IMG/VR virus record: IMGVR_UViG_2718218452_000008
Span: 1 to 38,347 of that record
Origin: a virus
Taxonomy: Duplodnaviria; Heunggongvirae; Uroviricota; Caudoviricetes
DNA length: 38,347 nt
Direction: 5' to 3' (one strand)
This document shows positions 3,482-38,347 of this stretch, in pieces (the stretch's first letter is position 1; every line of letters begins with the position of its first letter). The position numbers were made by a program, and so were the translations under genes. Under the pieces are notes generated by a model. That model made no database searches and was not told the DNA's origin. It saw only the letters and a list, made by a program, of their open reading frames with translations.

Positions 3482-3904
3482 GTGGCAAAAGTTTTTACAC
3501 AAGAAGAGCGGGAAAAAATTAAAGGGCAGGTTGTTGAACTCGTACGCCGGAGTGGGCGTGAGACGTTACGGCAACTGGAAGTCAAGACAGGTGCGACAAG
3601 ATATCTGATGAGCGTTCTCGCAAGAGAGCTGGTTGCCAGCGGCGATGTATACAACTCTGGTTACGGGTTATTCCCGTCTGAACAGGCGCGTAAGGACTGG
3701 CAAAATGCCCGTAAAAAGCTCTCAAGGGCAAAGCTGAAGGAACCATCTGCGGTTGATCCGGACCTTATCTGGTCATTACCTGACGGAGAAATACGTCGCT
3801 ACGACAGGCGTCAGAACATAATCTGTCGCGAGTGCCGGAAGAGTGAAGTTATGCAGCGCATACTAGCATTCTATCAGGGAAATGCTCGATATTTATTGAA
3901 GTGA
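3482..3904 (+). CDS. Hypothetical protein (140 aa)
   Basis: GTG start 5 nt after a strong AGGAGGG Shine-Dalgarno; normal GC; no recognisable motif. Confidence 0.5.
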   Translation: MAKVFTQEEREKIKGQVVELVRRSGRETLRQLEVKTGATRYLMSVLARELVASGDVYNSGYGLFPSEQARKDWQNARKKLSRAKLKEPSAVDPDLIWSLPDGEIRRYDRRQNIICRECRKSEVMQRILAFYQGNARYLLK

Positions 3905-4156
3905 TGAGATTAAAGTTTATTAGTTCAGATATTGATTGGCTCTTTTGTGGAGTAGGGTAGAGTTAGTGTGTTTGTCTGCTTGGTGCCAGCAGCGGATATG
4001 TTTAACAACAGAAAGCATTCAGCATGGTTAGTGGATTTGCAAAGTGGATTAGGATTTGAGAAACTTTGATGAAGTTGTAAAGCTTGTTTCTATAAAAATA
4101 GAAATTTAACTAATAGTTAAACACACCTCCAGCTTCATTGAAAAGGATTATTAGCT

Positions 4157-5056
4157 ATGATTGATCCACTTATTAGAAACTTACAGAGTGATATTGCACT
4201 ACTCCAGCTTTATATCGCGCAACGCAAACAGGCAGGCTTTCATGACATGGAAAGAATAATTGAGTCATTGACCATCTTTATGTTTCGCGCGCTGAAAATG
4301 GGTGAACTGGTAAACATGAATCAGATTAAAGTTAATTTTCCCGCCATTGATTTAGCTGATAATAAAAACATGATAGCAGTTCAAGTTACTACGAATGCAA
4401 GTCCAGCAAAAATTAAAAAAACTATCGAATCTTTTGAGAAAATAAATGAAATAGGAGAGAGTCTGAAAGATAAATACTCTACTTTATATATTTTTGGTTT
4501 TTGTAAAGCCTCAAGATACCTAACTCCAAGTTATTGTAAAATAATCGACCCCAGCTATTTCGTGAATGAACTTTGCGATAAAGCAGATGAAGATATGGTC
4601 CAGGATATGATTGACGCCATTCGACGCCATCATGATTATACATCATTACATCCATGGAGTGATAAAGATTCACTCGAAATTATACTCAATATTATTAATC
4701 GCAATGCAATAAAACATCGGATGAGTTGCGAAGGCAGTCTGTCTGATATGCTCACTGGTTTAAAAGAAATTAATGAAGTAATTACAAAAGGAACAATTCA
4801 ACGTAAGCAACGTTCAAAATCGATATCTGACTTCAAAGATCAAAGCATGGTGAAATTTATGAGAGGTGTAATGGATGATTTGTCTGTTATTCAAGCCATA
4901 GTGAACAAATCTAAAGTTAACCAAGGTGATATGGTTTATATAAGCCATGAAGATATGATTAATATTGATAAATTAAAAGCTAAAATAGCAAGTGATTCAT
5001 CAGAGATTGCAAGGCTAAATAATATTGATATAACACTAAATGTTGTTGATTTATAA
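4157..5056 (+). CDS. Putative SMEK-domain protein (299 aa), low-GC accessory gene
   Basis: The N-terminal region (NFPAIDLADNKNMIAVQVTTNASPAKIKKTIESFEK...LYIFGFCKA) resembles the SMEK domain as I recall it. The gene is strongly AT-rich relative to flanking phage genes and has an AGGA Shine-Dalgarno. Confidence 0.6.
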   Translation: MIDPLIRNLQSDIALLQLYIAQRKQAGFHDMERIIESLTIFMFRALKMGELVNMNQIKVNFPAIDLADNKNMIAVQVTTNASPAKIKKTIESFEKINEIGESLKDKYSTLYIFGFCKASRYLTPSYCKIIDPSYFVNELCDKADEDMVQDMIDAIRRHHDYTSLHPWSDKDSLEIILNIINRNAIKHRMSCEGSLSDMLTGLKEINEVITKGTIQRKQRSKSISDFKDQSMVKFMRGVMDDLSVIQAIVNKSKVNQGDMVYISHEDMINIDKLKAKIASDSSEIARLNNIDITLNVVDL

Positions 5057-5370
5057 TTGTCGATTTAGCAAAACAGAGAATGCTTTGAAAGTTTCACCGA
5101 GAAATATTTATTGTGAACCTCCTTATTGTTTATCGACTTTTACTCTCCGCTCATTGCAGTACTGTCGGAGAAGGCTACTATGTACAAGAAGCAGCTAACA
5201 TAAGCGAGCATCACTATTGATATTAGGAAGAGTATATAAAAACTTCATGCTGAACCTTACAAAAGTAGGTAAACCGGCAATGGCCTAAGTGGCAGGGTCA
5301 TGTTGATCCGGCACTGCCGAGCTAATAATTAACAAGCAAATCACTCTTTCTAATAATTTGTTGAAATAAA

Positions 5371-6024
5371 CTAAATATGTATATGTTTACCAACAACCAC
5401 ATATGAACTACCTGCTTTGCTCCATGATTTTATTATTTCTAAATTATTATCTGAGCATATTTTACTTACAGTATCCACATCTAATAAACCATAGTAGAAA
5501 GCATTGCGAGAGTTTTGGTATATATACCCATGCAAATGTTTAATACCGCTCTCGTACCTCTTGAAATAAGAACTTTTGTATTGATTGACAATCAGTGCTT
5601 CACCATCACTCTTTAATAATTCTCTAATCGCACTGAGGACTTTGTGAATTGTGGATTCACATGGAATTGCGGAAAGCACGTTTGCGCAAAGTATGAAATC
5701 ATAATGATTTGTTATTTTATCTATATTTTCATAAGAAACAATATTAGCATTCTTATAGTTATTTATCACGTAATCTGGAATCGTGGTTTGTACACCTCTG
5801 ATAATTTGCACTCTTTCTAGTTGTCTTCTGGAATCTAAAAATGTCACAGTTTCAAATTTATTTACTAATTGTTCTGAATATCTAAGTTTTCCACATCCAA
5901 AATCAAGGGCATTGCCATTTTTATTAGTGCTTTCAATCTGTTTACAGAGATAGTTAGATGGCATAGTGTGCGGTTTCGCTGCATTTTCTGAACGTATGTT
6001 TATTCCATTTATTTTGTAATTCAA
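5371..6024 (-). CDS. Class I SAM-dependent methyltransferase (about 217 aa), not DNA-MTase-like
   Basis: Motif I ALDFGCGKLRYS, acidic end of beta-2 (VTFLDSRRQ), post-I ILCANVLSAIP, and LLKSDGEALIV. It lacks DPPY/NPPY and PCQ motifs. Probable TTG start at 6024 (GAGG 6 nt upstream) or 6030; starts 13 bp after the membrane-protein stop. Confidence 0.75.
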   Translation of the reverse strand: MNYKINGINIRSENAAKPHTMPSNYLCKQIESTNKNGNALDFGCGKLRYSEQLVNKFETVTFLDSRRQLERVQIIRGVQTTIPDYVINNYKNANIVSYENIDKITNHYDFILCANVLSAIPCESTIHKVLSAIRELLKSDGEALIVNQYKSSYFKRYESGIKHLHGYIYQNSRNAFYYGLLDVDTVSKICSDNNLEIIKSWSKAGSSYVVVGKHIHI

Positions 6025-6036
6025 AATCAACCTCGT

Positions 6037-6732
6037 TTAAAAAATATTGTTATTGTTAAAGAATTCTTTTATTTTGCTATCAGGTATTTGTCTTACTTGG
6101 CTTTCTGTTCTTGGTTTAACTGATGCTATGAAAATAAGGAAGTCAAATGCGACAAGAGAAATAATCCACAACCAAAGATTAATTAAAGAGCCAGTAACAG
6201 AGAATATATTTGTTAATTTGGCGATACTTATTATTAAAATAGTAACAAATGCGATTACTGTATGTTCAAAGAAAACCCAAAAGTAATAAACTTTGTTCCA
6301 GAAAAGTTCAACGTAATGTTTGTCTTTTAACTCTTTAACTTCTGGGTAATACAGTTTACTCATTACCTTGTGAGATTCATCAGTAGTTAATTTTCTCGTA
6401 ACGCCTGCAATTTTTGCTAATGGTTTAATAATTAAATGACTATCCCACATCTTCCTTATTCCAATAATTTTTGCTACATTATTATGTAGATCTAAAGCTC
6501 CACTAATTACTGACCAAAAAACTGAAGATGCAATTGGTAATATGCCAAAGGTTAATATCCATTTAATAAATTCCTCGTAGTCTTTAACGGGGGGGATATA
6601 CTTGGCATTAATGCCAACCAATGGCATGTAGCCATAAATGACTAATGATAGGTAAAATATAAATGTAGTAATAAAAGTCGCCTTATGGAGCATAGGCAAC
6701 ATTTCATTATAACTCTTTGGTGGTTCTAACAT
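6037..6732 (-). CDS. Predicted 4-TM integral membrane protein (231 aa), first gene of a two-gene operon with the methyltransferase
   Basis: Four long hydrophobic segments (ATFITTFIFYLSLVIYGYMPLVGI; FIKWILTFGILPIASSVFWSVISGAL; YYFWVFFEHTVIAFVTILIISIA; LINLWLWIISLVAFDFLIFIASV). ATG at 6732 has GGAG 7 nt upstream. Very AT-rich. Confidence 0.7.
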   Translation of the reverse strand: MLEPPKSYNEMLPMLHKATFITTFIFYLSLVIYGYMPLVGINAKYIPPVKDYEEFIKWILTFGILPIASSVFWSVISGALDLHNNVAKIIGIRKMWDSHLIIKPLAKIAGVTRKLTTDESHKVMSKLYYPEVKELKDKHYVELFWNKVYYFWVFFEHTVIAFVTILIISIAKLTNIFSVTGSLINLWLWIISLVAFDFLIFIASVKPRTESQVRQIPDSKIKEFFNNNNIF

Positions 6733-7173
6733 TTTACTCTCCAAACACTCAAAAAAAAGCTAATCTTCTATAATAACGAAATTCAGCTGGCACAATTAAA
6801 GATTAATTGCCACCAATTTCTTGATTTTATAATTTTATCTAAATGTTTTTGATTAATCTAGTCCTAAAAGAAACCTACTGCATAAATATTTATGCTGATG
6901 ACCCACTCCCTGTTCGTTAACACATAGCAACGTTAGTAATGCATCCTAAGTGATCAATATTTTTGCTAGCTTCATCTGCTCGCTCAAAGGGAACTATAAT
7001 GTTGGCTTGCGTGTGACTTGGCATGTTTAAAGAAGTGCTGGTGGTGACTGGTTGCTGTTTTCCATTTCCACAGAACAAAATCATAGAAACTATACCCAGT
7101 AGTTGTATTGAATCACTGACGAGACAGCCTCATATTTATCAGGACTGGTGTACGTCCAATACAGGAGGTTGTG

Positions 7174-7263
7174 GTGCTGGTTCTCAAATGTGCGCTGGCT
7201 ATTGCTGCTGTAATGGCAATTTATTGTCTTGCTGTTGTTCTTATGGATCACCTTTCTGATTGA
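7174..7263 (+). CDS. Candidate small hydrophobic peptide (29 aa)
   Basis: AGGAGG at 7163-7168 followed by a GTG start, encoding (M)VLVLKCALAIAAVMAIYCLAVVLMDHLSD, a single predicted TM helix. Not in the ORF track (under 60 aa). Confidence 0.3.
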   Translation: MLVLKCALAIAAVMAIYCLAVVLMDHLSD

Positions 7264-7474
7264 TTTCATATTGGCGAGGTAACGGTAGTTAAGTAGAATT
7301 GCTGCGGGTGCTTGAGGCTATCTGCCTCGGGCATCAACACCAAAGGCAGATAGAGAAAAGCCCCAGTTAACATTACGCGTCCGGCAAGACGCTTAACATT
7401 AATCTGAGGCCATATCTATGCTCTACACACGTAGGTTAGCCTCTTACGTGCCGAAAGGCAAGGAGAAGCAGGCT

Positions 7475-7630
7475 ATGAAGCAGCAAAAGGCGATGTTAAT
7501 CGCCCTGATCGTCATCTGTTTAACCGTCATAGTGACGGCACTGGTAACGAGGAAAGACCTCTGCGAGGTACGAATCCGAACCGGCCAGACGGAGGTCGCT
7601 GTCTTCACAGCTTACGAATCTGAGGAGTAA
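7475..7630 (+). CDS. hok: Hok/Gef-family type I toxin (51 aa)
   Basis: MKQQKAMLIALIVICLTVIVTALVTRKDLCEVRIRTGQTEVAVFTAYESEE is the Hok family signature and near-identical to K-12 HokD/RelF as recalled. The track ORF 7418-7630 extends in frame upstream. Confidence 0.85.
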   Translation: MKQQKAMLIALIVICLTVIVTALVTRKDLCEVRIRTGQTEVAVFTAYESEE

Positions 7631-7698
7631 GAGACCCGGCGGGGGAGAAATCCCTCGCCACCTCTGATGTGTCAGGCATTCTCAACGCACCCGCATTT

Positions 7699-7725
7699 AA
7701 CCCGCTTCGGCGGGTTTTTGTTTTT
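7699..7725 (+). terminator. Intrinsic terminator downstream of hok
   Basis: CCCGC-TTCG-GCGGG hairpin at 7701-7714 followed by TTTTTGTTTTT. Confidence 0.6.
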
Positions 7726-36031: not shown

Positions 36032-36098
36032 ATTTTATAACCCATATACGGGCGCCAGAAATGGCGCCTTTTTTATTGCAGAAAAGCGAGAGGTAATT

Positions 36099-36698
36099 AT
36101 GCGTAAACTTTATGCCGCCATTTTGTCCGCAGCCATTTGTCTGGCCGTATCCGGTGCGCCTGCATGGGCGTCTGAACATCAGTCCACGCTGAGCGCGGGG
36201 TATCTTCATGTCTCGACGAACGTTCCTGGCAGCGATGAACTGAACGGGATTAACGTGAAATACCGTTATGAGTTTACGGACACACTGGGGATGGTGACGT
36301 CGTTCAGCTATGCAGGAGACAAGAATCGCCAGCTTACCCGTTACAGCGATACCCGCTGGCATGAAGATTCCGTGCGTAACCGCTGGTTCAGCGTGATGGT
36401 GGGGCCGTCTGTGCGCGTGAATGAATGGTTCAGCGCGTATGCGATGGCGGGTATGGCTTACAGCCGTGTGTCGACTTTCTCCGGGGATTATCTCCGCGTA
36501 ACTGACAACAAGGGGAAAACGCACGACGTGCTGACCGGAAGTGATGACGGTCGCCACAGCAACACGTCTCTGGCGTGGGGAGCTGGCGTGCAGTTTAACC
36601 CGACCGAATCCGTGGCCATTGATATTGCTTATGAAGGCTCCGGCAGTGGCGACTGGCGCACTGACGGTTTCATCGTGGGTGTCGGTTATAAGTTCTGA
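36099..36698 (+). CDS. lom: Lom-family outer membrane protein (Ail/PagC/OmpX beta-barrel family)
   Basis: Signal peptide and the C-terminal [23 protein letters not shown], which matches the lambda Lom C-terminus. Confidence 0.85.
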
Positions 36699-36724
36699 TT
36701 AGCCAGGTAACACAGTGTTATGAC

Positions 36725-36752
36725 AGCCCGCCGGTTCAGGCGGGCTTTTTTG
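36725..36752 (+). terminator. Intrinsic terminator downstream of lom
   Basis: AGCCCGCC-GGTTCAG-GCGGGCT hairpin followed by TTTTTTG. Confidence 0.7.
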
Positions 36753-36762
36753 TGGGGTGAAT

Positions 36763-38076
36763 ATGGCAGTAAAGATTTCAGGTGTACTGAAAGACGGCAC
36801 AGGAAAACCGGTACAGAACTGCACAATCCAGCTGAAAGCAAAACGTAACAGCACCACGGTGGTGGTGAACACGCTGGCCTCAGAAAATCCGGATGAAGCC
36901 GGGCGTTACAGCATGGACGTTGAGTACGGTCAGTACAGCGTTATTCTGTTGGTGGAAGGATTCCCGCCGTCACATGCCGGGACCATCACCGTGTATGAAG
37001 ATTCTCAACCGGGGACGCTGAATGATTTTCTCGGTGCCATGTCGGAGGATGACGTCCGGCCGGAGGCACTGCGTCGTTTTGAACTGATGGTGGAAGAAGC
37101 GGCGCGTCACGCTGAGGAGGCGAAGAAGAATGCCGGAGAGGCGGAGACGTCCGCGAGGAATGCTGGCATATCAGCCAGTCAGGCAGAAGAGAGCGCTGCA
37201 AATGCTGACACTTCAGCAGGGGATGCATCGGAGTCAGCCCGGCAGGCGGCAGAAAGTGCAGCCTCAGCAAAGCAGTCAGAGGATGCGTCCTCGTCCTCGG
37301 CCTCTGCGGCCGCTCAAAAAGCCAGTGAGTCATTACAAAGTGCAACAGATGCTGAGTTGTCAAAAAAGATGGCAGAAAGTGCAGCCGGTAATGCAGCCAG
37401 GGATGCAACGACCGCAACAGAAAAAGCCCGGGAGTCAGCAGAAAGCGCACAGTCAGCGGAACAAAGCAGGATAGCGGCGGAAGAGGCCGTAAACCGAATC
37501 CCCACCGTGGTGGGACCTCCCGGGCCAAAGGGGGAACAGGGGCCCGCGGGTCCTCAGGGGCCGAAGGGTGATAAGGGAGAGCGCGGTGACACCGGCCCTG
37601 TCGGGGCAACCGGCGAACGGGGACCGGCAGGTGATGCTGGTCCGGCAGGCCCGCAGGGGCCGAAAGGTGACAGGGGAGAGCGGGGAGAGACCGGTCTGAC
37701 GGGAAATGCAGGTCCACAGGGTCCAAAGGGAGATACCGGTGCGGCAGGCCCGGCAGGCCCACAGGGACCGAAAGGAGAAACAGGTGCGGCTGGCCCGGTG
37801 GGGGCAACCGGACCTCAGGGACCGAAGGGCGACCCGGGGGAGACACAAATCCGTTTTCGTCTGGGGCCGGCGAGCATTATTGAGACAAACAGCAATGGCT
37901 GGTTCCCGGATACAGATGGCGCACTCATCACCGGACTGACCTTTCTTGACCCCAAAGATGCCACACAGGTTCAGGGGCTGTTTCAGCATTTGCAGGTCAG
38001 GTTTGGTGACGGGCCGTGGCAGGATGTTAAGGGGCTGAATGAAGTGGGCAGTGATACAGGCAGAACAGGAGAATGA
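36763..38076 (+). CDS. stf: Side tail fiber protein (Stf-like) with collagen-like G-X-Y repeats
   Basis: N-terminus MAVKISGVLKDGTGKPVQNCTIQLKA... matches the lambda Stf N-terminus. An acidic Ala/Ser-rich coiled region precedes about 35 G-X-Y triplets (GPPGPKGEQGPAGPQGPKGDKGERGD...). Confidence 0.85.
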   Translation: MAVKISGVLKDGTGKPVQNCTIQLKAKRNSTTVVVNTLASENPDEAGRYSMDVEYGQYSVILLVEGFPPSHAGTITVYEDSQPGTLNDFLGAMSEDDVRPEALRRFELMVEEAARHAEEAKKNAGEAETSARNAGISASQAEESAANADTSAGDASESARQAAESAASAKQSEDASSSSASAAAQKASESLQSATDAELSKKMAESAAGNAARDATTATEKARESAESAQSAEQSRIAAEEAVNRIPTVVGPPGPKGEQGPAGPQGPKGDKGERGDTGPVGATGERGPAGDAGPAGPQGPKGDRGERGETGLTGNAGPQGPKGDTGAAGPAGPQGPKGETGAAGPVGATGPQGPKGDPGETQIRFRLGPASIIETNSNGWFPDTDGALITGLTFLDPKDATQVQGLFQHLQVRFGDGPWQDVKGLNEVGSDTGRTGE

Positions 38077-38077
38077 C

Positions 38078-38347
38078 ATGAATATACTAAAAAAACTTAT
38101 GCAGCGTCTGTGTGGTTGCGGAAAGCATGATGGCCGTGAACACGTGCAGTCGCTTACAGCACAACTGCGACTGGGACCGGCAGACATTCTGGAGTCAGAT
38201 GAGAATGGCATTATTCCGGAGCAGGACAGGGTAATCACACAGGTGGTGATACTGGATGCGGATAAAAAGCAGATACAGTGCGTGGTAAGACCGCTGCAAA
38301 TTCTGCGTGCTGACGGGACGTGGGAAAATATTGGCGGGATGAAGTAA
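38078..38347 (+). CDS. Small protein (89 aa) with a module homologous to the Stf C-terminal domain
   Basis: ATG 1 nt after the stf stop with AGGAG upstream. LRLGPADILESDENGIIPEQDRVITQVVILDADKKQIQ...LQILRADGTWENI parallels IRFRLGPASIIETNSNGWFPDTDGALITGLTFLDPKDATQVQ...LQVRFGDGPWQDV at the Stf C-terminus. Confidence 0.5.
   Translation: MNILKKLMQRLCGCGKHDGREHVQSLTAQLRLGPADILESDENGIIPEQDRVITQVVILDADKKQIQCVVRPLQILRADGTWENIGGMK

What the first reader, a model, noticed from the sequence alone, without database searches (positions are those of the whole stretch)
37500..38347. Collagen-like side tail fiber followed by a small gene carrying a paralogous tip module
Stf has a long uninterrupted G-X-Y collagen-like region, and its C-terminal module is duplicated in divergent form in the next 89-codon ORF. 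This could be an alternative receptor-binding tip, a fiber chaperone, or a remnant of tip-module exchange.
Basis: seen in the sequence. Interest (0 to 1): 0.5.

Follow-up and report, generated by a model that had tools for sequence, protein, structure and literature searches.

The report
Tail fibre plus free tip-domain gene
A prophage tail-fibre gene with a collagen-like shaft is followed, one base later, by a small gene encoding a second, diverged copy of the fibre's end knob. The arrangement is real and already described in E. coli O157-type phages, but what the small protein does is still unknown.

Summary
Window 36763-38076 encodes a 437-aa EPclA-type side tail fibre: PfN, coiled coil, 37 uninterrupted G-X-Y triplets, then a PfC knob. 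Window 38078-38347 encodes an 89-aa protein, a 27-residue leader plus a second PfC domain. Both PfC copies match Pfam PF06820 (E about 1e-35) and are 38% identical to each other (E 3e-15).

The arrangement is not new. The fibre type was characterised biochemically (Ghosh 2012). The 89-aa gene was noted as ORF68 of Stx2 phage Sp5, where it is non-essential and was proposed as a spare-tip "reservoir" (Mondal 2016). It has its own PHROG family and a RefSeq name.

New here:
- The small gene is a selected late gene (dN/dS 0.06 in its PfC part, against 0.21 for the fibre's PfC).
- It has an ideal ribosome-binding site.
- It followed 53 of 53 PfC-tipped fibres examined and none of three with a different tip.
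- A conserved terminator follows it.
- The pair recurs, diverged, behind a non-collagen fibre in Salmonella.

Inert debris is therefore unlikely. An essential chaperone is contradicted by published data. I favour a non-essential partner of the fibre tip (about 0.45). Rare natural in-frame tip swaps exist.

The parts
36725..36746 (+). Terminator-like hairpin between lom and stf (AGCCCGCCGGTTCAGGCGGGCT followed by a T-run)
   Evidence: found at L001 6026-6047, and L001 coordinate plus 30699 gives the window coordinate. The sequence was read directly. No sigma-70-like promoter match was found between here and the end of the small ORF.
36763..38076 (+). stf: 437-aa collagen-like side tail fibre with EPclA architecture (PfN, PCoil, Col, PfC)
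   Evidence: Pfam matches PF08400, PF01391 and PF06820. 100% identical in E. coli C7 and 99.9% in O103:H2 12009, where RefSeq annotates WP_000279086.1. The domain lengths are those of EPclA in Ghosh 2012.
36763..37161 (+). PfN domain (prophage tail fibre N-terminal domain, probably the tail-attachment end)
   Evidence: PF08400, E 1.3e-68, residues 3-135 of the 439-codon ORF.
37162..37512 (+). PCoil: alanine/serine/glutamate-rich low-complexity region, a trimeric coiled coil in EPclA
   Evidence: It lies between the PfN and Col matches. The coiled-coil trimer was shown experimentally for EPclA in PMC3368898. No coiled-coil predictor was run here.
37513..37845 (+). Col: 37 uninterrupted G-X-Y triplets (111 aa) forming a collagen triple helix
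   Evidence: Regular-expression count. PF01391 at E 3.9e-18. Internal 43-56-nt direct repeat families D1 and D2.
37849..38040 (+). PfC domain of Stf, the C-terminal trimerising knob
   Evidence: PF06820, E 1.1e-35, residues 365-428, matching profile positions 1-64 of 64. PfC alone is a trimer in SEC/MALLS (PMC3368898).
38041..38076 (+). 11-residue C-terminal tail of Stf (NEVGSDTGRTGE region) plus the TGA stop codon. The tail is found on fibre-borne PfC copies and is absent from the small ORF.
   Evidence: Alignment A1. The tail is also present on the Salmonella fibre PfC.
38067..38071 (+). Shine-Dalgarno AGGAG, 6 nt upstream of the small ORF's ATG and inside the last Stf codons
   Evidence: Read directly. 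The junction sequence is conserved in 56 of 60 loci. A ribosome-binding site is annotated at the same place in OM418627.
38078..38347 (+). 89-codon gene for a free-standing PfC protein. It corresponds to WP_001023455.1 and PHROG 576, and is homologous to Sp5 ORF68 (H0138 in VT2-Sakai).
   Evidence: It starts 1 nt after the Stf stop codon, in the +1 frame. It was intact in 83 of 83 and 49 of 54 related loci.
38078..38158 (+). 27-residue leader (MNILKKLMQRLCGCGKHDGREHVQSLT). Residues 1-18 are conserved and residues 19-26 are variable.
   Evidence: dN/dS 0.36. Per-position residue counts. The motif M-x-I-x-K-K-...-L-x-G-C-x-K is shared with the Salmonella homologue.
38159..38344 (+). PfC domain of the small protein
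   Evidence: PF06820, E 5.1e-36, residues 28-89. dN/dS 0.06, with 34 DNA alleles giving 10 proteins.
37620..37630 (+). Microhomology GGGACCGGCAG in the collagen region. It is the upstream copy of the longest exact word shared by stf and the small ORF.
   Evidence: repeat D8. It is the junction of the natural fusion protein P0063...GERGPA|DILESDENG....
38173..38183 (+). Second copy of GGGACCGGCAG, in the small ORF at its 'LGPAD' codons. Deleting the 553 nt between the two copies fuses the two reading frames in phase.

Best explanation
Window 37500-38347 holds two things. The first is the collagen shaft and terminal PfC knob of an EPclA-type side tail fibre of a lambdoid E. coli prophage. The second, one nucleotide after the fibre's stop codon, is a separate late gene for an 89-aa protein: a short leader plus a second, anciently diverged PfC knob domain.

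Shown here:
- The small gene has its own strong ribosome-binding site.
- It is the last gene before a conserved terminator.
- It is under stronger purifying selection than the fibre's own knob.
- It accompanied every PfC-tipped fibre examined and no fibre with another tip type.
- It recurs as a diverged pair in Salmonella prophages whose fibre has no collagen.

Inferred:
- Like PfC itself, the small protein forms a small trimeric knob.
- It works together with the fibre tip as a non-essential accessory partner, in the genomic position that tfa holds in phage lambda. It might cap or extend the knob, or improve its assembly or stability.
- It is neither an indispensable chaperone, nor a mere spare part, nor debris.

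No contact between the two proteins has been shown.
For: - Paralogy and family.
- Translation signals: AGGAG 6 nt before the ATG. The stop-to-start gap was 1 nt in 52 of 53 loci.
- Selection, in loci chosen on the fibre's N-terminus and therefore not on the small ORF: dN/dS 0.06 for small-ORF codons 28-89, 0.36 for the leader and 0.21 for the Stf PfC; 49 of 54 copies intact. A first set of loci shows the same trend.
- Co-occurrence: 53 of 53 PfC-ended fibres are followed by the gene, and 3 of 3 fibres with a different C-terminus lack it.
- Operon end: the hairpin AAAACCGGAGTCCGGCUCCGGUUUU plus a U-run lies 17 nt after the stop codon in nearly all loci, including the chromosomal copy that is 99.9% identical to the window across the queried 36700-38347 region. 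No terminator lies between stf and the small gene.
- Deep conservation: in a Salmonella enterica prophage, a 211-aa non-collagen fibre ending in PF06820 overlaps by 14 nt a 79-aa PfC-only gene with a related leader. Between E. coli and Salmonella the small proteins are 64% identical and the fibre knobs 40%. Fibre against small is 30-39%. The duplication is therefore older than that split, and the free copy is the slower-evolving one.
- PfC-like modules can lie in series along a fibre: four tandem copies in the metagenomic collagen fibre P0229.
- PfC is an autonomous trimerisation domain (PMC3368898).
Against: - No physical interaction was tested, and no multimer structure prediction was possible. 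The monomer AlphaFold models are poor (pLDDT 66 and 49), and no solved structure or fold match exists.
- Deleting the homologous ORF68 in Sp5 left the phage infectious on K-12 (PMC5155283). Any role is therefore dispensable in the laboratory.
- The fibre folds and trimerises without the small protein.
- No virion proteomics for this protein was found.
- Tight physical linkage alone could explain part of the co-occurrence.
- The dN/dS values are pairwise Nei-Gojobori means over recombining, non-independent alleles.
Confidence: 0.45

Rival explanations
1. Spare-tip reservoir (the Mondal 2016 proposal). The small ORF is kept mainly as a silent cassette that recombination can graft onto the fibre to change its C-terminal knob.
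For: - P0063 is a natural in-frame fusion of the collagen region to the small ORF's PfC (...GERGPA|DILESDENG...). Its junction lies exactly at the 11-nt word GGGACCGGCAG shared by window 37620 and 38173. The 553-nt deletion restores the reading frame.
- The reciprocal-type chimera P0174 joins the small-ORF leader to a fibre-type PfC.
- Mondal et al. proposed this idea.
Against: - The free copy is the most conserved part of the locus, not a source of diversity: dN/dS 0.06 against 0.21, and 64% against 40% identity across genera.
- Its ribosome-binding site, ATG and 1-nt spacing are conserved, which a silent cassette does not need.
- The two modules are only 55% identical in DNA, too little for ordinary homologous exchange.
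- Fusions are very rare: one cluster of 4 sequences from 2 samples, against clusters of hundreds to more than a thousand intact copies.
Confidence: 0.15
2. Tfa-like assembly chaperone. The small protein is required to fold or trimerise the fibre tip and is then released, as lambda Tfa or T4 gp38/gp57 do for their fibres.
For: - It lies immediately after stf, in the tfa position, and is translationally coupled.
- GenBank record OM418627 (lambda h434 imm21) labels it 'tail fiber assembly chaperone'.
- It is always present with PfC tips.
Against: - It has no Pfam match to the Tfa family or to anything except PF06820, even at E up to 1.
- Sp5 ORF67 (the fibre) is essential, but ORF68 is listed among the non-essential late genes.
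- Recombinant EPclA, Col-PfC and PfC alone form trimers in E. coli expression strains, and Col-PfC refolds on its own after heating.
- The genome announcement behind OM418627 says nothing about this gene, so the label appears to rest on position only.
Confidence: 0.1
3. A product aimed at the host cell or at competing phages, not at the virion. It could be a receptor-masking or decoy copy of the fibre knob (as the T5 Llp and Cor lipoproteins block FhuA), or another lysogen-expressed accessory function.
For: - The leader contains a conserved L-x-G-C-x-K motif at residues 11-16 in both E. coli and Salmonella, which looks like a lipobox.
- The gene sits at the border with the type III effector cargo.
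- Strong conservation would suit binding to a conserved host protein.
Against: - There is no hydrophobic core before the cysteine. Arg10 (E. coli) or Lys8/His9 (Salmonella) lie within 4-6 residues of it, and only 13 residues precede it. A PROSITE PS51257-style lipoprotein rule, applied by inspection, therefore fails.
- Cys14 is replaced in 9 of 132 copies.
- No promoter-like site precedes the gene, and it is bracketed together with stf by terminators. That points to late-operon expression.
Confidence: 0.1
4. Inert leftover of a past tip replacement: an orphaned old C-terminus that happens still to be open.
For: - Prophages of these strains are full of deletion chimeras that involve this ORF (P0024, P0066, P0085).
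- Truncated 3' fragments of it lie further downstream.
Against: - Purifying selection and intactness.
- Conserved translation signals.
- Conservation of the pair across genera and across fibre types.
Confidence: 0.03
5. Programmed +1 frameshift at the Stf stop codon, making a fibre with two PfC knobs in tandem.
For: - The small ORF is in the +1 frame and open across the junction.
- The stop is UGA-C, with an AGGAG just upstream, superficially like the prfB site.
- Tandem PfC-like modules exist in P0229.
Against: - The P-site codon would be GAA, which cannot re-pair in the +1 frame (AAU).
- The AGGAG overlaps that codon instead of lying 3 nt upstream, and there is no slippery run.
- Mondal et al. 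also found no frameshift signal.
- In Salmonella the two genes overlap by 14 nt with a different geometry.
Confidence: 0.03

Closest known systems
EPclA, the EHEC prophage collagen-like protein A (e.g. ECs2717, ECs1123, Z0982; Ghosh et al. 2012, PMC3368898)
   Same: It has the same domain order (PfN, PCoil, Col, PfC) and the same 437-aa length with a 111-aa collagen domain. PfC sits at residues about 363-426. The protein is nearly identical.
   Different: Nothing of substance; the Stf here is an EPclA allele. That paper does not discuss the downstream PfC-only gene: no mention was found when its text was searched.
Sp5 (VT2-Sakai) ORF67/ORF68, equal to ECs1228 and H0137/H0138 (Mondal et al. 2016, PMC5155283)
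   Same: The Col-PfC end and the 89-aa PfC-only gene form the same cassette, at 95% nucleotide identity over window 37527-38343 (H53). [quoted passage not shown]
   Different: In Sp5 the cassette ends a 645-aa EPclB fibre of a short-tailed Stx2 phage, where the fibre is essential. Here it ends the side fibre of a long-tailed lambdoid prophage, and type III effector genes follow.
Lambda Stf/Tfa, and the Tfa/gp38-type proteins of Mu, P2 and T-even phages
   Same: A small gene lies immediately after the fibre gene, is co-transcribed and translationally coupled, and is specific for the tip type it follows. From my own knowledge, some Tfa and gp38 proteins stay bound to the fibre tip.
   Different: There is no sequence relationship to Tfa (PF02413 is not hit). 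The small protein is a paralogue of the tip itself. It is dispensable in Sp5, and the fibre trimerises without it.
Diversity-generating retroelement layout (variable repeat at the fibre C-terminus, template repeat just downstream)
   Same: A second copy of the fibre's C-terminal module sits directly downstream of the fibre gene.
   Different: The two copies are 55% identical in DNA instead of near-identical with adenine-specific differences. The downstream copy is a translated, selected gene. No reverse transcriptase is among the neighbouring genes.
Fibres with a C-terminal intramolecular chaperone (EPclC/D-like tips ending ...LVEGFKTLRHEIKELREK)
   Same: They have the same PfN, PCoil and Col front end in sister prophages (L124, L127, L156).
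   Different: The tip is different and no PfC-only gene follows. This shows that the small gene travels with the PfC tip and not with the shaft.

Membership tests
Pfam PF06820 Phage_fiber_C (PfC) | Match to the 64-position profile above the gathering score (25 bits) | tested here: met
   The Stf C-terminus scores 122.2 bits and the small ORF 123.3 bits. Both cover profile positions 1-64.
Pfam PF06820 Phage_fiber_C (PfC) | Forms a trimer on its own (the property shown for PfC of EPclA) | not testable with these tools
   This was shown for the fibre's PfC by SEC/MALLS in PMC3368898. It has not been shown for the small ORF's copy. The monomer AlphaFold models are of low confidence.
EPclA collagen-like tail fibre (Ghosh 2012) | Domain order PfN, PCoil, a single Col, PfC, with an uninterrupted (G-X-Y)n | tested here: met
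   PF08400 at residues 3-135, PF01391, PF06820 at residues 365-428. There are 37 uninterrupted triplets, or 111 aa. Lengths match Table 2 of the paper.
EPclA collagen-like tail fibre (Ghosh 2012) | [quoted passage not shown] | not tested
   No coiled-coil predictor was run. The region is near-identical in sequence to the EPclA region that was characterised experimentally.
PHROG 576 / RefSeq 'phage tail fiber C-terminal domain-containing protein' (the free-standing 89-aa PfC gene) | Full-length match to the 89-position family profile | tested here: met
   phrog_576 at E 6.4e-60, residues 1-89 against profile positions 1-89. RefSeq annotates the corresponding gene as WP_001023455.1.
Tail fibre assembly protein Tfa (Pfam PF02413 Caudo_TAP) | Sequence membership in the Tfa family | tested here: not met
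   A Pfam scan at E up to 1 returns only PF06820. NCBIfam returns nothing.
Tail fibre assembly protein Tfa (Pfam PF02413 Caudo_TAP) | Gene immediately downstream of the fibre gene and specific to its tip | tested here: met
   The gap is 1 nt. The gene followed 53 of 53 PfC-tipped fibres and 0 of 3 with another tip.
Tail fibre assembly protein Tfa (Pfam PF02413 Caudo_TAP) | Needed to obtain functional fibres | not testable with these tools
   Published data argue against it. Sp5 ORF68 is non-essential while the fibre ORF67 is essential. EPclA trimerises when expressed alone.
Diversity-generating retroelement (VR/TR pair) | Near-identical variable and template repeats that differ at adenines, plus a nearby reverse transcriptase | tested here: not met
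   The two modules are 55% identical at the nucleotide level and the longest shared word is 11 nt. The neighbouring genes are lom, J and type III effectors.
Invertible tail-fibre segment (Mu Gin, P1 Cin, e14 Pin type) | Alternative tips in opposite orientation, flanked by inverted crossover sites, with an invertase gene | tested here: not met
   Both PfC copies are on the + strand. Only short inverted repeats of 12-19 nt were found, none flanking a module. No invertase is annotated in the neighbourhood.
Bacterial lipoprotein (as for the phage exclusion proteins Llp and Cor) | Signal peptide with an uncharged hydrophobic core followed by a lipobox L-[ASTVI...]-[GAS]-C | tested here: not met
   The L-C-G-C at residues 11-14 resembles a lipobox. 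However, Arg10 lies in the would-be core, only 13 residues precede the Cys, and Cys14 varies in 7% of copies. This was judged by inspection against the PROSITE PS51257 rule recalled from memory; no dedicated predictor was available.
Programmed ribosomal frameshift fusion | A slippery site that allows tRNA re-pairing in the new frame at the junction | tested here: not met
   The junction reads ...ACA GGA GAA UGA C AUG. GAA cannot re-pair in the +1 frame and there is no X XXY YYZ motif. Mondal et al. reached the same conclusion.

The most novel reading that the evidence does not exclude
The free PfC protein could be a previously unrecognised kind of fibre accessory subunit. In this reading, a paralogue of the fibre's own knob assembles as a separate trimer and docks in trans on the PfC tip of collagen-like (and, in Salmonella, non-collagen) fibres. 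It would act as a distal cap or adaptor that modulates receptor use, for example BamA recognition by Stx phages, or host range on natural smooth strains. That would explain why it is dispensable on laboratory K-12 yet strongly conserved.
Probability: 0.2. Interest if true: 0.55.

Novelty: already known. Interest (0 to 1): 0.27.

Why it matters
These fibres sit on the prophages that spread Shiga toxin and type III effector genes among pathogenic E. coli. The same Col-PfC plus small-gene cassette ends the essential tail fibre of short-tailed Stx2 phages, which is thought to recognise BamA. Whether the conserved 89-aa protein is part of the adsorption apparatus bears on Stx-phage host range and on engineering phage tips. 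The question is specialist and the arrangement is already in the literature and the databases. The contribution here is comparative: the small gene is a selected, obligate companion of PfC tips across genera. This narrows the hypotheses and argues against both the "reservoir" and the "leftover" readings.

Tried and rejected
1. Structure. AlphaFold2 monomer models of the PfC part (pLDDT 66.5) and of the whole 89-aa protein (pLDDT 49.2) were too poor to use. A Foldseek search against the PDB gave nothing below E = 2, and a PDB sequence search gave only a chance hit. PfC is an obligate trimer, and no multimer prediction tool was available.

2. Tfa homology. None in Pfam or NCBIfam.

3. DGR, invertible-segment and frameshift models were rejected.

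4. Lipoprotein or exclusion idea. The lipobox-like LCGC has no hydrophobic core before it.

5. Species-representative genome scan. It found only E. albertii and a 725-nt 'Xanthomonas pisi' contig that is probably contamination, so it added little.

6. Literature. Searches by locus tag (ECs1229, Z1484, H0138 and others) and for virion proteomics of this protein found nothing useful. The genome announcement for lambda h434 imm21 gives no basis for its 'assembly chaperone' label.

7. Selection bias. The first dN/dS set had been chosen on identity to the small protein itself and is therefore biased. I repeated the analysis on loci chosen on the fibre's N-terminus.

8. Fusion proteins. I looked among the homologues for natural Stf-small fusions that could serve as a single-chain stand-in for a complex. 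None was found.
Full report
**1. What is in the sequence**

The + strand of the window's last 1.6 kb carries two genes. The first ORF runs from 36757 or 36763 to 38076. The second is an 89-codon ORF from 38078 to 38347, whose stop codon is the last triplet of the window.

The first protein matches three Pfam families:
- PF08400 (prophage tail fibre N-terminal), E 1.3e-68.
- PF01391 (collagen), E 3.9e-18.
- PF06820 (Phage_fiber_C, "PfC"), E 1.1e-35, at residues 365-428.

Residues 253-363 (window 37513-37845) are 37 G-X-Y triplets with no interruption. The small protein matches PF06820 over residues 28-89 at E 5.1e-36, and nothing else even at E up to 1.

Aligned directly, the two PfC stretches share 24 of 63 residues (38%) at E 3e-15, 21.8 sd above shuffled controls. 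In DNA the two modules are only about 55% identical. The longest word shared by stf and the small gene is 11 nt, so this is an old protein-level duplication and not a DNA repeat.

**2. It is a known arrangement**

The region from 36700 to 38347 is 100% identical to the chromosome of E. coli C7 and 99.9% identical to O103:H2 strain 12009. Related copies occur in 4814 of 5426 complete E. coli genomes, up to 16 per genome. RefSeq names the two genes "prophage tail fiber N-terminal domain-containing protein" and "phage tail fiber C-terminal domain-containing protein".

The fibre is an allele of EPclA, with the same PfN-PCoil-Col-PfC order, 437 aa and a 111-aa collagen domain. Ghosh et al. showed three things for EPclA (PMC3368898):
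- It is a trimeric dumbbell about 55-60 nm long.
- PfC trimerises on its own.
- Col-PfC refolds spontaneously after heat denaturation.

The same Col-PfC plus small-gene cassette is present in 296 phage records. Most of these are Stx-converting phages, including VT2-Sakai (Sp5) at 95% identity. [quoted passage not shown] They listed it among the non-essential late genes, whereas the fibre ORF67 is essential. [quoted passage not shown] The small protein also has its own PHROG family (phrog_576, "tail fiber protein"). The feature is thus real but already annotated and already discussed; only its function is open.

**3. The small ORF behaves as a real, selected gene**

- *Translation signals.* An AGGAG lies at 38067-38071, 6 nt before the ATG at 38078. 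The junction is almost invariant among related loci.
- *Unbiased sample.* I collected loci from IMG/VR twice. The first set was chosen on the small protein. That choice biases towards conserved proteins, so I collected a second set chosen on the fibre's N-terminal domain.
- *Co-occurrence.* In the second set, all 53 PfC-ended fibre genes with enough downstream DNA were followed by the small gene, 52 of them with exactly 1 nt between stop and start. The three fibres with the same front end but a different C-terminus (ending ...LVEGFKTLRHEIKELREK) have no small gene anywhere in the locus.
- *Selection.* Pairwise Nei-Gojobori estimates in the second set give dN/dS 0.06 for small-ORF codons 28-89, with 34 DNA alleles encoding only 10 proteins. 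The 27-codon leader gives 0.36 and the fibre's own PfC 0.21. Of 54 copies, 49 are intact. The first set agrees (0.09, 0.29 and 0.27). These are crude means over recombining alleles, but the direction is clear: the free copy is the most constrained part of the locus.
- *Operon position.* A terminator-like hairpin separates lom from stf (window 36725-36746). None lies between stf and the small gene, and no promoter-like site precedes either. Seventeen nucleotides after the small gene's stop codon there is a conserved hairpin, AAAACCGGAGUCCGGCUCCGGUUUU, followed by a U-run. It is present in nearly all loci, including the chromosomal copy that is 99.9% identical to the window over the queried region (L001 7664-7693). 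The small gene is therefore the last gene of the fibre transcription unit and not part of the downstream cargo.

**4. The pair is old and moves with the tip, not the shaft**

A profile of both PfC types, searched against 1.84 billion representative proteins, finds only 92 hits. Most are fragments or deletion chimeras from E. coli and its relatives. Named homologues come from E. coli, E. albertii and Citrobacter rodentium.

One divergent hit is informative. In Salmonella enterica prophages, a 211-aa fibre has no collagen, carries a weak CBM5/12-like match, and ends in PF06820 (E 4e-16). A 79-aa PfC-only gene overlaps it by 14 nt (E 1e-23). The leader of that gene, MTIFKKIKHCLFGCDK, resembles MNILKKLMQRLCGCGK.

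Identities between the E. coli and Salmonella copies:

| Comparison | Identity |
|---|---|
| Small protein against small protein | 64% |
| Fibre knob against fibre knob | 40% |
| Fibre knob against small protein, E. coli | 39% |
| Fibre knob against small protein, Salmonella | 30% |

The duplication therefore predates this divergence. Both copies have been kept side by side since, and the free copy evolves more slowly. A metagenomic collagen-like fibre (P0229) carries four tandem PfC-like half-domains, up to 50% identical to small-ORF residues 56-89 and above the Pfam threshold. PfC-like modules can therefore lie in series along one fibre.

**5. What the small protein most likely does**

*Inert remnant.* Section 3 and section 4 make this very unlikely.

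*Essential Tfa-like chaperone.* This is contradicted on three counts. There is no Tfa homology. ORF68 is dispensable in Sp5 although the fibre is essential. The fibre and isolated PfC assemble without it. The label "tail fiber assembly chaperone" in GenBank OM418627 (lambda h434 imm21) seems positional, because the accompanying paper does not mention the gene.

*Reservoir.* There is real but thin support.
- P0063 is an in-frame fusion of the collagen region to the small ORF's knob. Its junction lies exactly at the shared 11-mer GGGACCGGCAG (window 37620 and 38173). The 553-nt deletion puts the +1-frame small ORF in phase.
- P0174 is the converse chimera.
- Against it: such fusions are very rare, the cassette is the least variable element, and a silent spare part needs neither a conserved ribosome-binding site nor dN/dS 0.06.

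*Favoured reading (about 0.45).* I favour a non-essential partner of the PfC tip. It would be a small trimeric knob protein made with the fibre that caps, extends or stabilises the tip. This would be analogous in position, though not in ancestry, to Tfa or gp38-type proteins that remain on fibre tips (that comparison is from my own knowledge). Gene reality, selection and co-occurrence are shown. Trimer formation by the free copy and its contact with the fibre are inferred and untested.

*Minor alternatives.*
- A receptor-masking or decoy role. The leader's L-x-G-C motif resembles a lipobox but lacks a hydrophobic core.
- A +1 frameshift fusion. No slippery site is present.

**6. Structure attempts**

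Monomer AlphaFold2 models were of low confidence (pLDDT 66.5 and 49.2). They showed only beta strands in the PfC part and a possible helix at leader residues 3-12. The beta-strand content agrees with the CD data of Ghosh et al., but the models are otherwise unusable. Foldseek and sequence searches of the PDB found nothing. PfC has no solved structure.

**7. Context seen along the way**

In the chromosomal copy matching the window, nleB2, nleC, a tfa remnant, nleH, cif and nleA follow the small gene. Across loci the sequence after the terminator stays common up to ...GATGTTTGTTA, about 67 nt past the stop codon. Beyond that point it diverges into many different cargo cassettes. In about a fifth of loci, a truncated copy of the small gene's 3' part reappears 0.7-1 kb downstream. 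There it flanks a 180-aa ORF of unidentified function, or nleG and nleB genes. The end of the fibre unit thus acts as the fixed left border of the exchangeable effector region.

**8. Verdict**

Novelty is "already known". Interest is modest (0.27). The open question is whether this conserved free knob is part of the adsorption apparatus of Stx and effector-carrying phages. It could be settled with a multimer prediction, a re-search of existing virion proteomics, or a deletion tested on natural hosts.

Noticed in passing
L001 7649-7715 (chromosomal copy matching the window; just beyond the window's end at 38347): A conserved intrinsic terminator (AAAACCGGAGTCCGGCTCCGGTTTTTG) starts 17 nt after the small gene's stop codon. 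A fixed junction ...GATGTTTGTTA follows, after which different loci carry different effector or cargo cassettes. The simple terminator scan missed this hairpin.
   Followed up: partly
L002 4975-5096; L009 5041-5146; similar copies in about 17 of 81 loci: Truncated extra copies of the small gene's 3' part (nt 130-251 or 153-269, 79-93% identical) lie 0.7-1 kb downstream. They flank nleG genes, a 180-aa ORF of unidentified function, and nleB-type genes. They look like recombination scars at the borders of effector cassettes. P0028 (76 members) is a small ORF whose last residues were replaced at such a junction.
   Followed up: partly
L162 113-974 (Salmonella enterica, GCA_008387015.1): A non-collagen 211-aa fibre ending in a divergent PfC is overlapped by 14 nt by a 79-aa PfC-only gene. 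Genes for NleG-like and SopA/NleL-like effectors lie downstream.
   Followed up: yes
L160 4-291 (E. coli, GCA_038404665.1); junction corresponds to window 37620-37630 and 38173-38183: P0063 is a natural in-frame fusion of the collagen region to the small gene's PfC through an 11-nt microhomology. The contig begins inside the gene, so it is unknown whether a full-length swapped-tip fibre exists.
   Followed up: partly
L163 3505-5202 (metagenome SRR17035117): The 565-aa collagen-like fibre P0229 has four tandem repeats of about 80 aa. The C-terminal halves of these repeats resemble PfC (VVVLDAD...LQVRRADGTW.EI), and they lie N-terminal to its collagen region.
   Followed up: partly
L161 (OM418627.1, Escherichia phage Lambda h434 imm21), locus 3764-8726: This lambda h434 imm21 hybrid record carries the same EPclA-type stf and small gene, followed by NleB-, NleC- and NleH-like effector genes or fragments. 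The small gene is labelled 'tail fiber assembly chaperone' without stated evidence.
   Followed up: partly
window 36051-36070 and 36725-36746: The lom gene (36099-36698, Ail/Lom family, E 4e-118) is bracketed by two terminator-like hairpins, as expected for a moron inserted between J and stf.
   Followed up: no
window 38078-38125 (leader residues 1-16): The motif M-x-I-x-K-K-...-L-x-G-C-x-K is conserved between E. coli and Salmonella. Cys12 and Gly13 are invariant in 132 copies, and Cys14 is present in 93%. It looks like a lipobox without a hydrophobic signal core. Its role is unexplained.
   Followed up: partly
window 36986-37846 (- strand) and 37453-38238 (- strand): Long antisense ORFs of 286 and 261 aa lie across the collagen and PfC coding region. 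They are Pro/Arg/Leu-rich mirror images of the G-X-Y codons and almost certainly not genes.
   Followed up: no
L165 (NZ_JPLE01000138.1, 'Xanthomonas pisi' DSM 18956, 725-nt contig): This contig encodes a 93%-identical copy of the E. coli small PfC gene. It is most likely an E. coli contaminant contig in that assembly.
   Followed up: no
L124, L127, L156 (IMG/VR): These sister prophages have the same PfN-PCoil-Col front end but a different tip, ending ...LVEGFKTLRHEIKELREK. They have no PfC-only gene. In L124 a 185-aa ORF and a short ORF that may be a tail-fibre-assembly fragment follow instead.
   Followed up: partly
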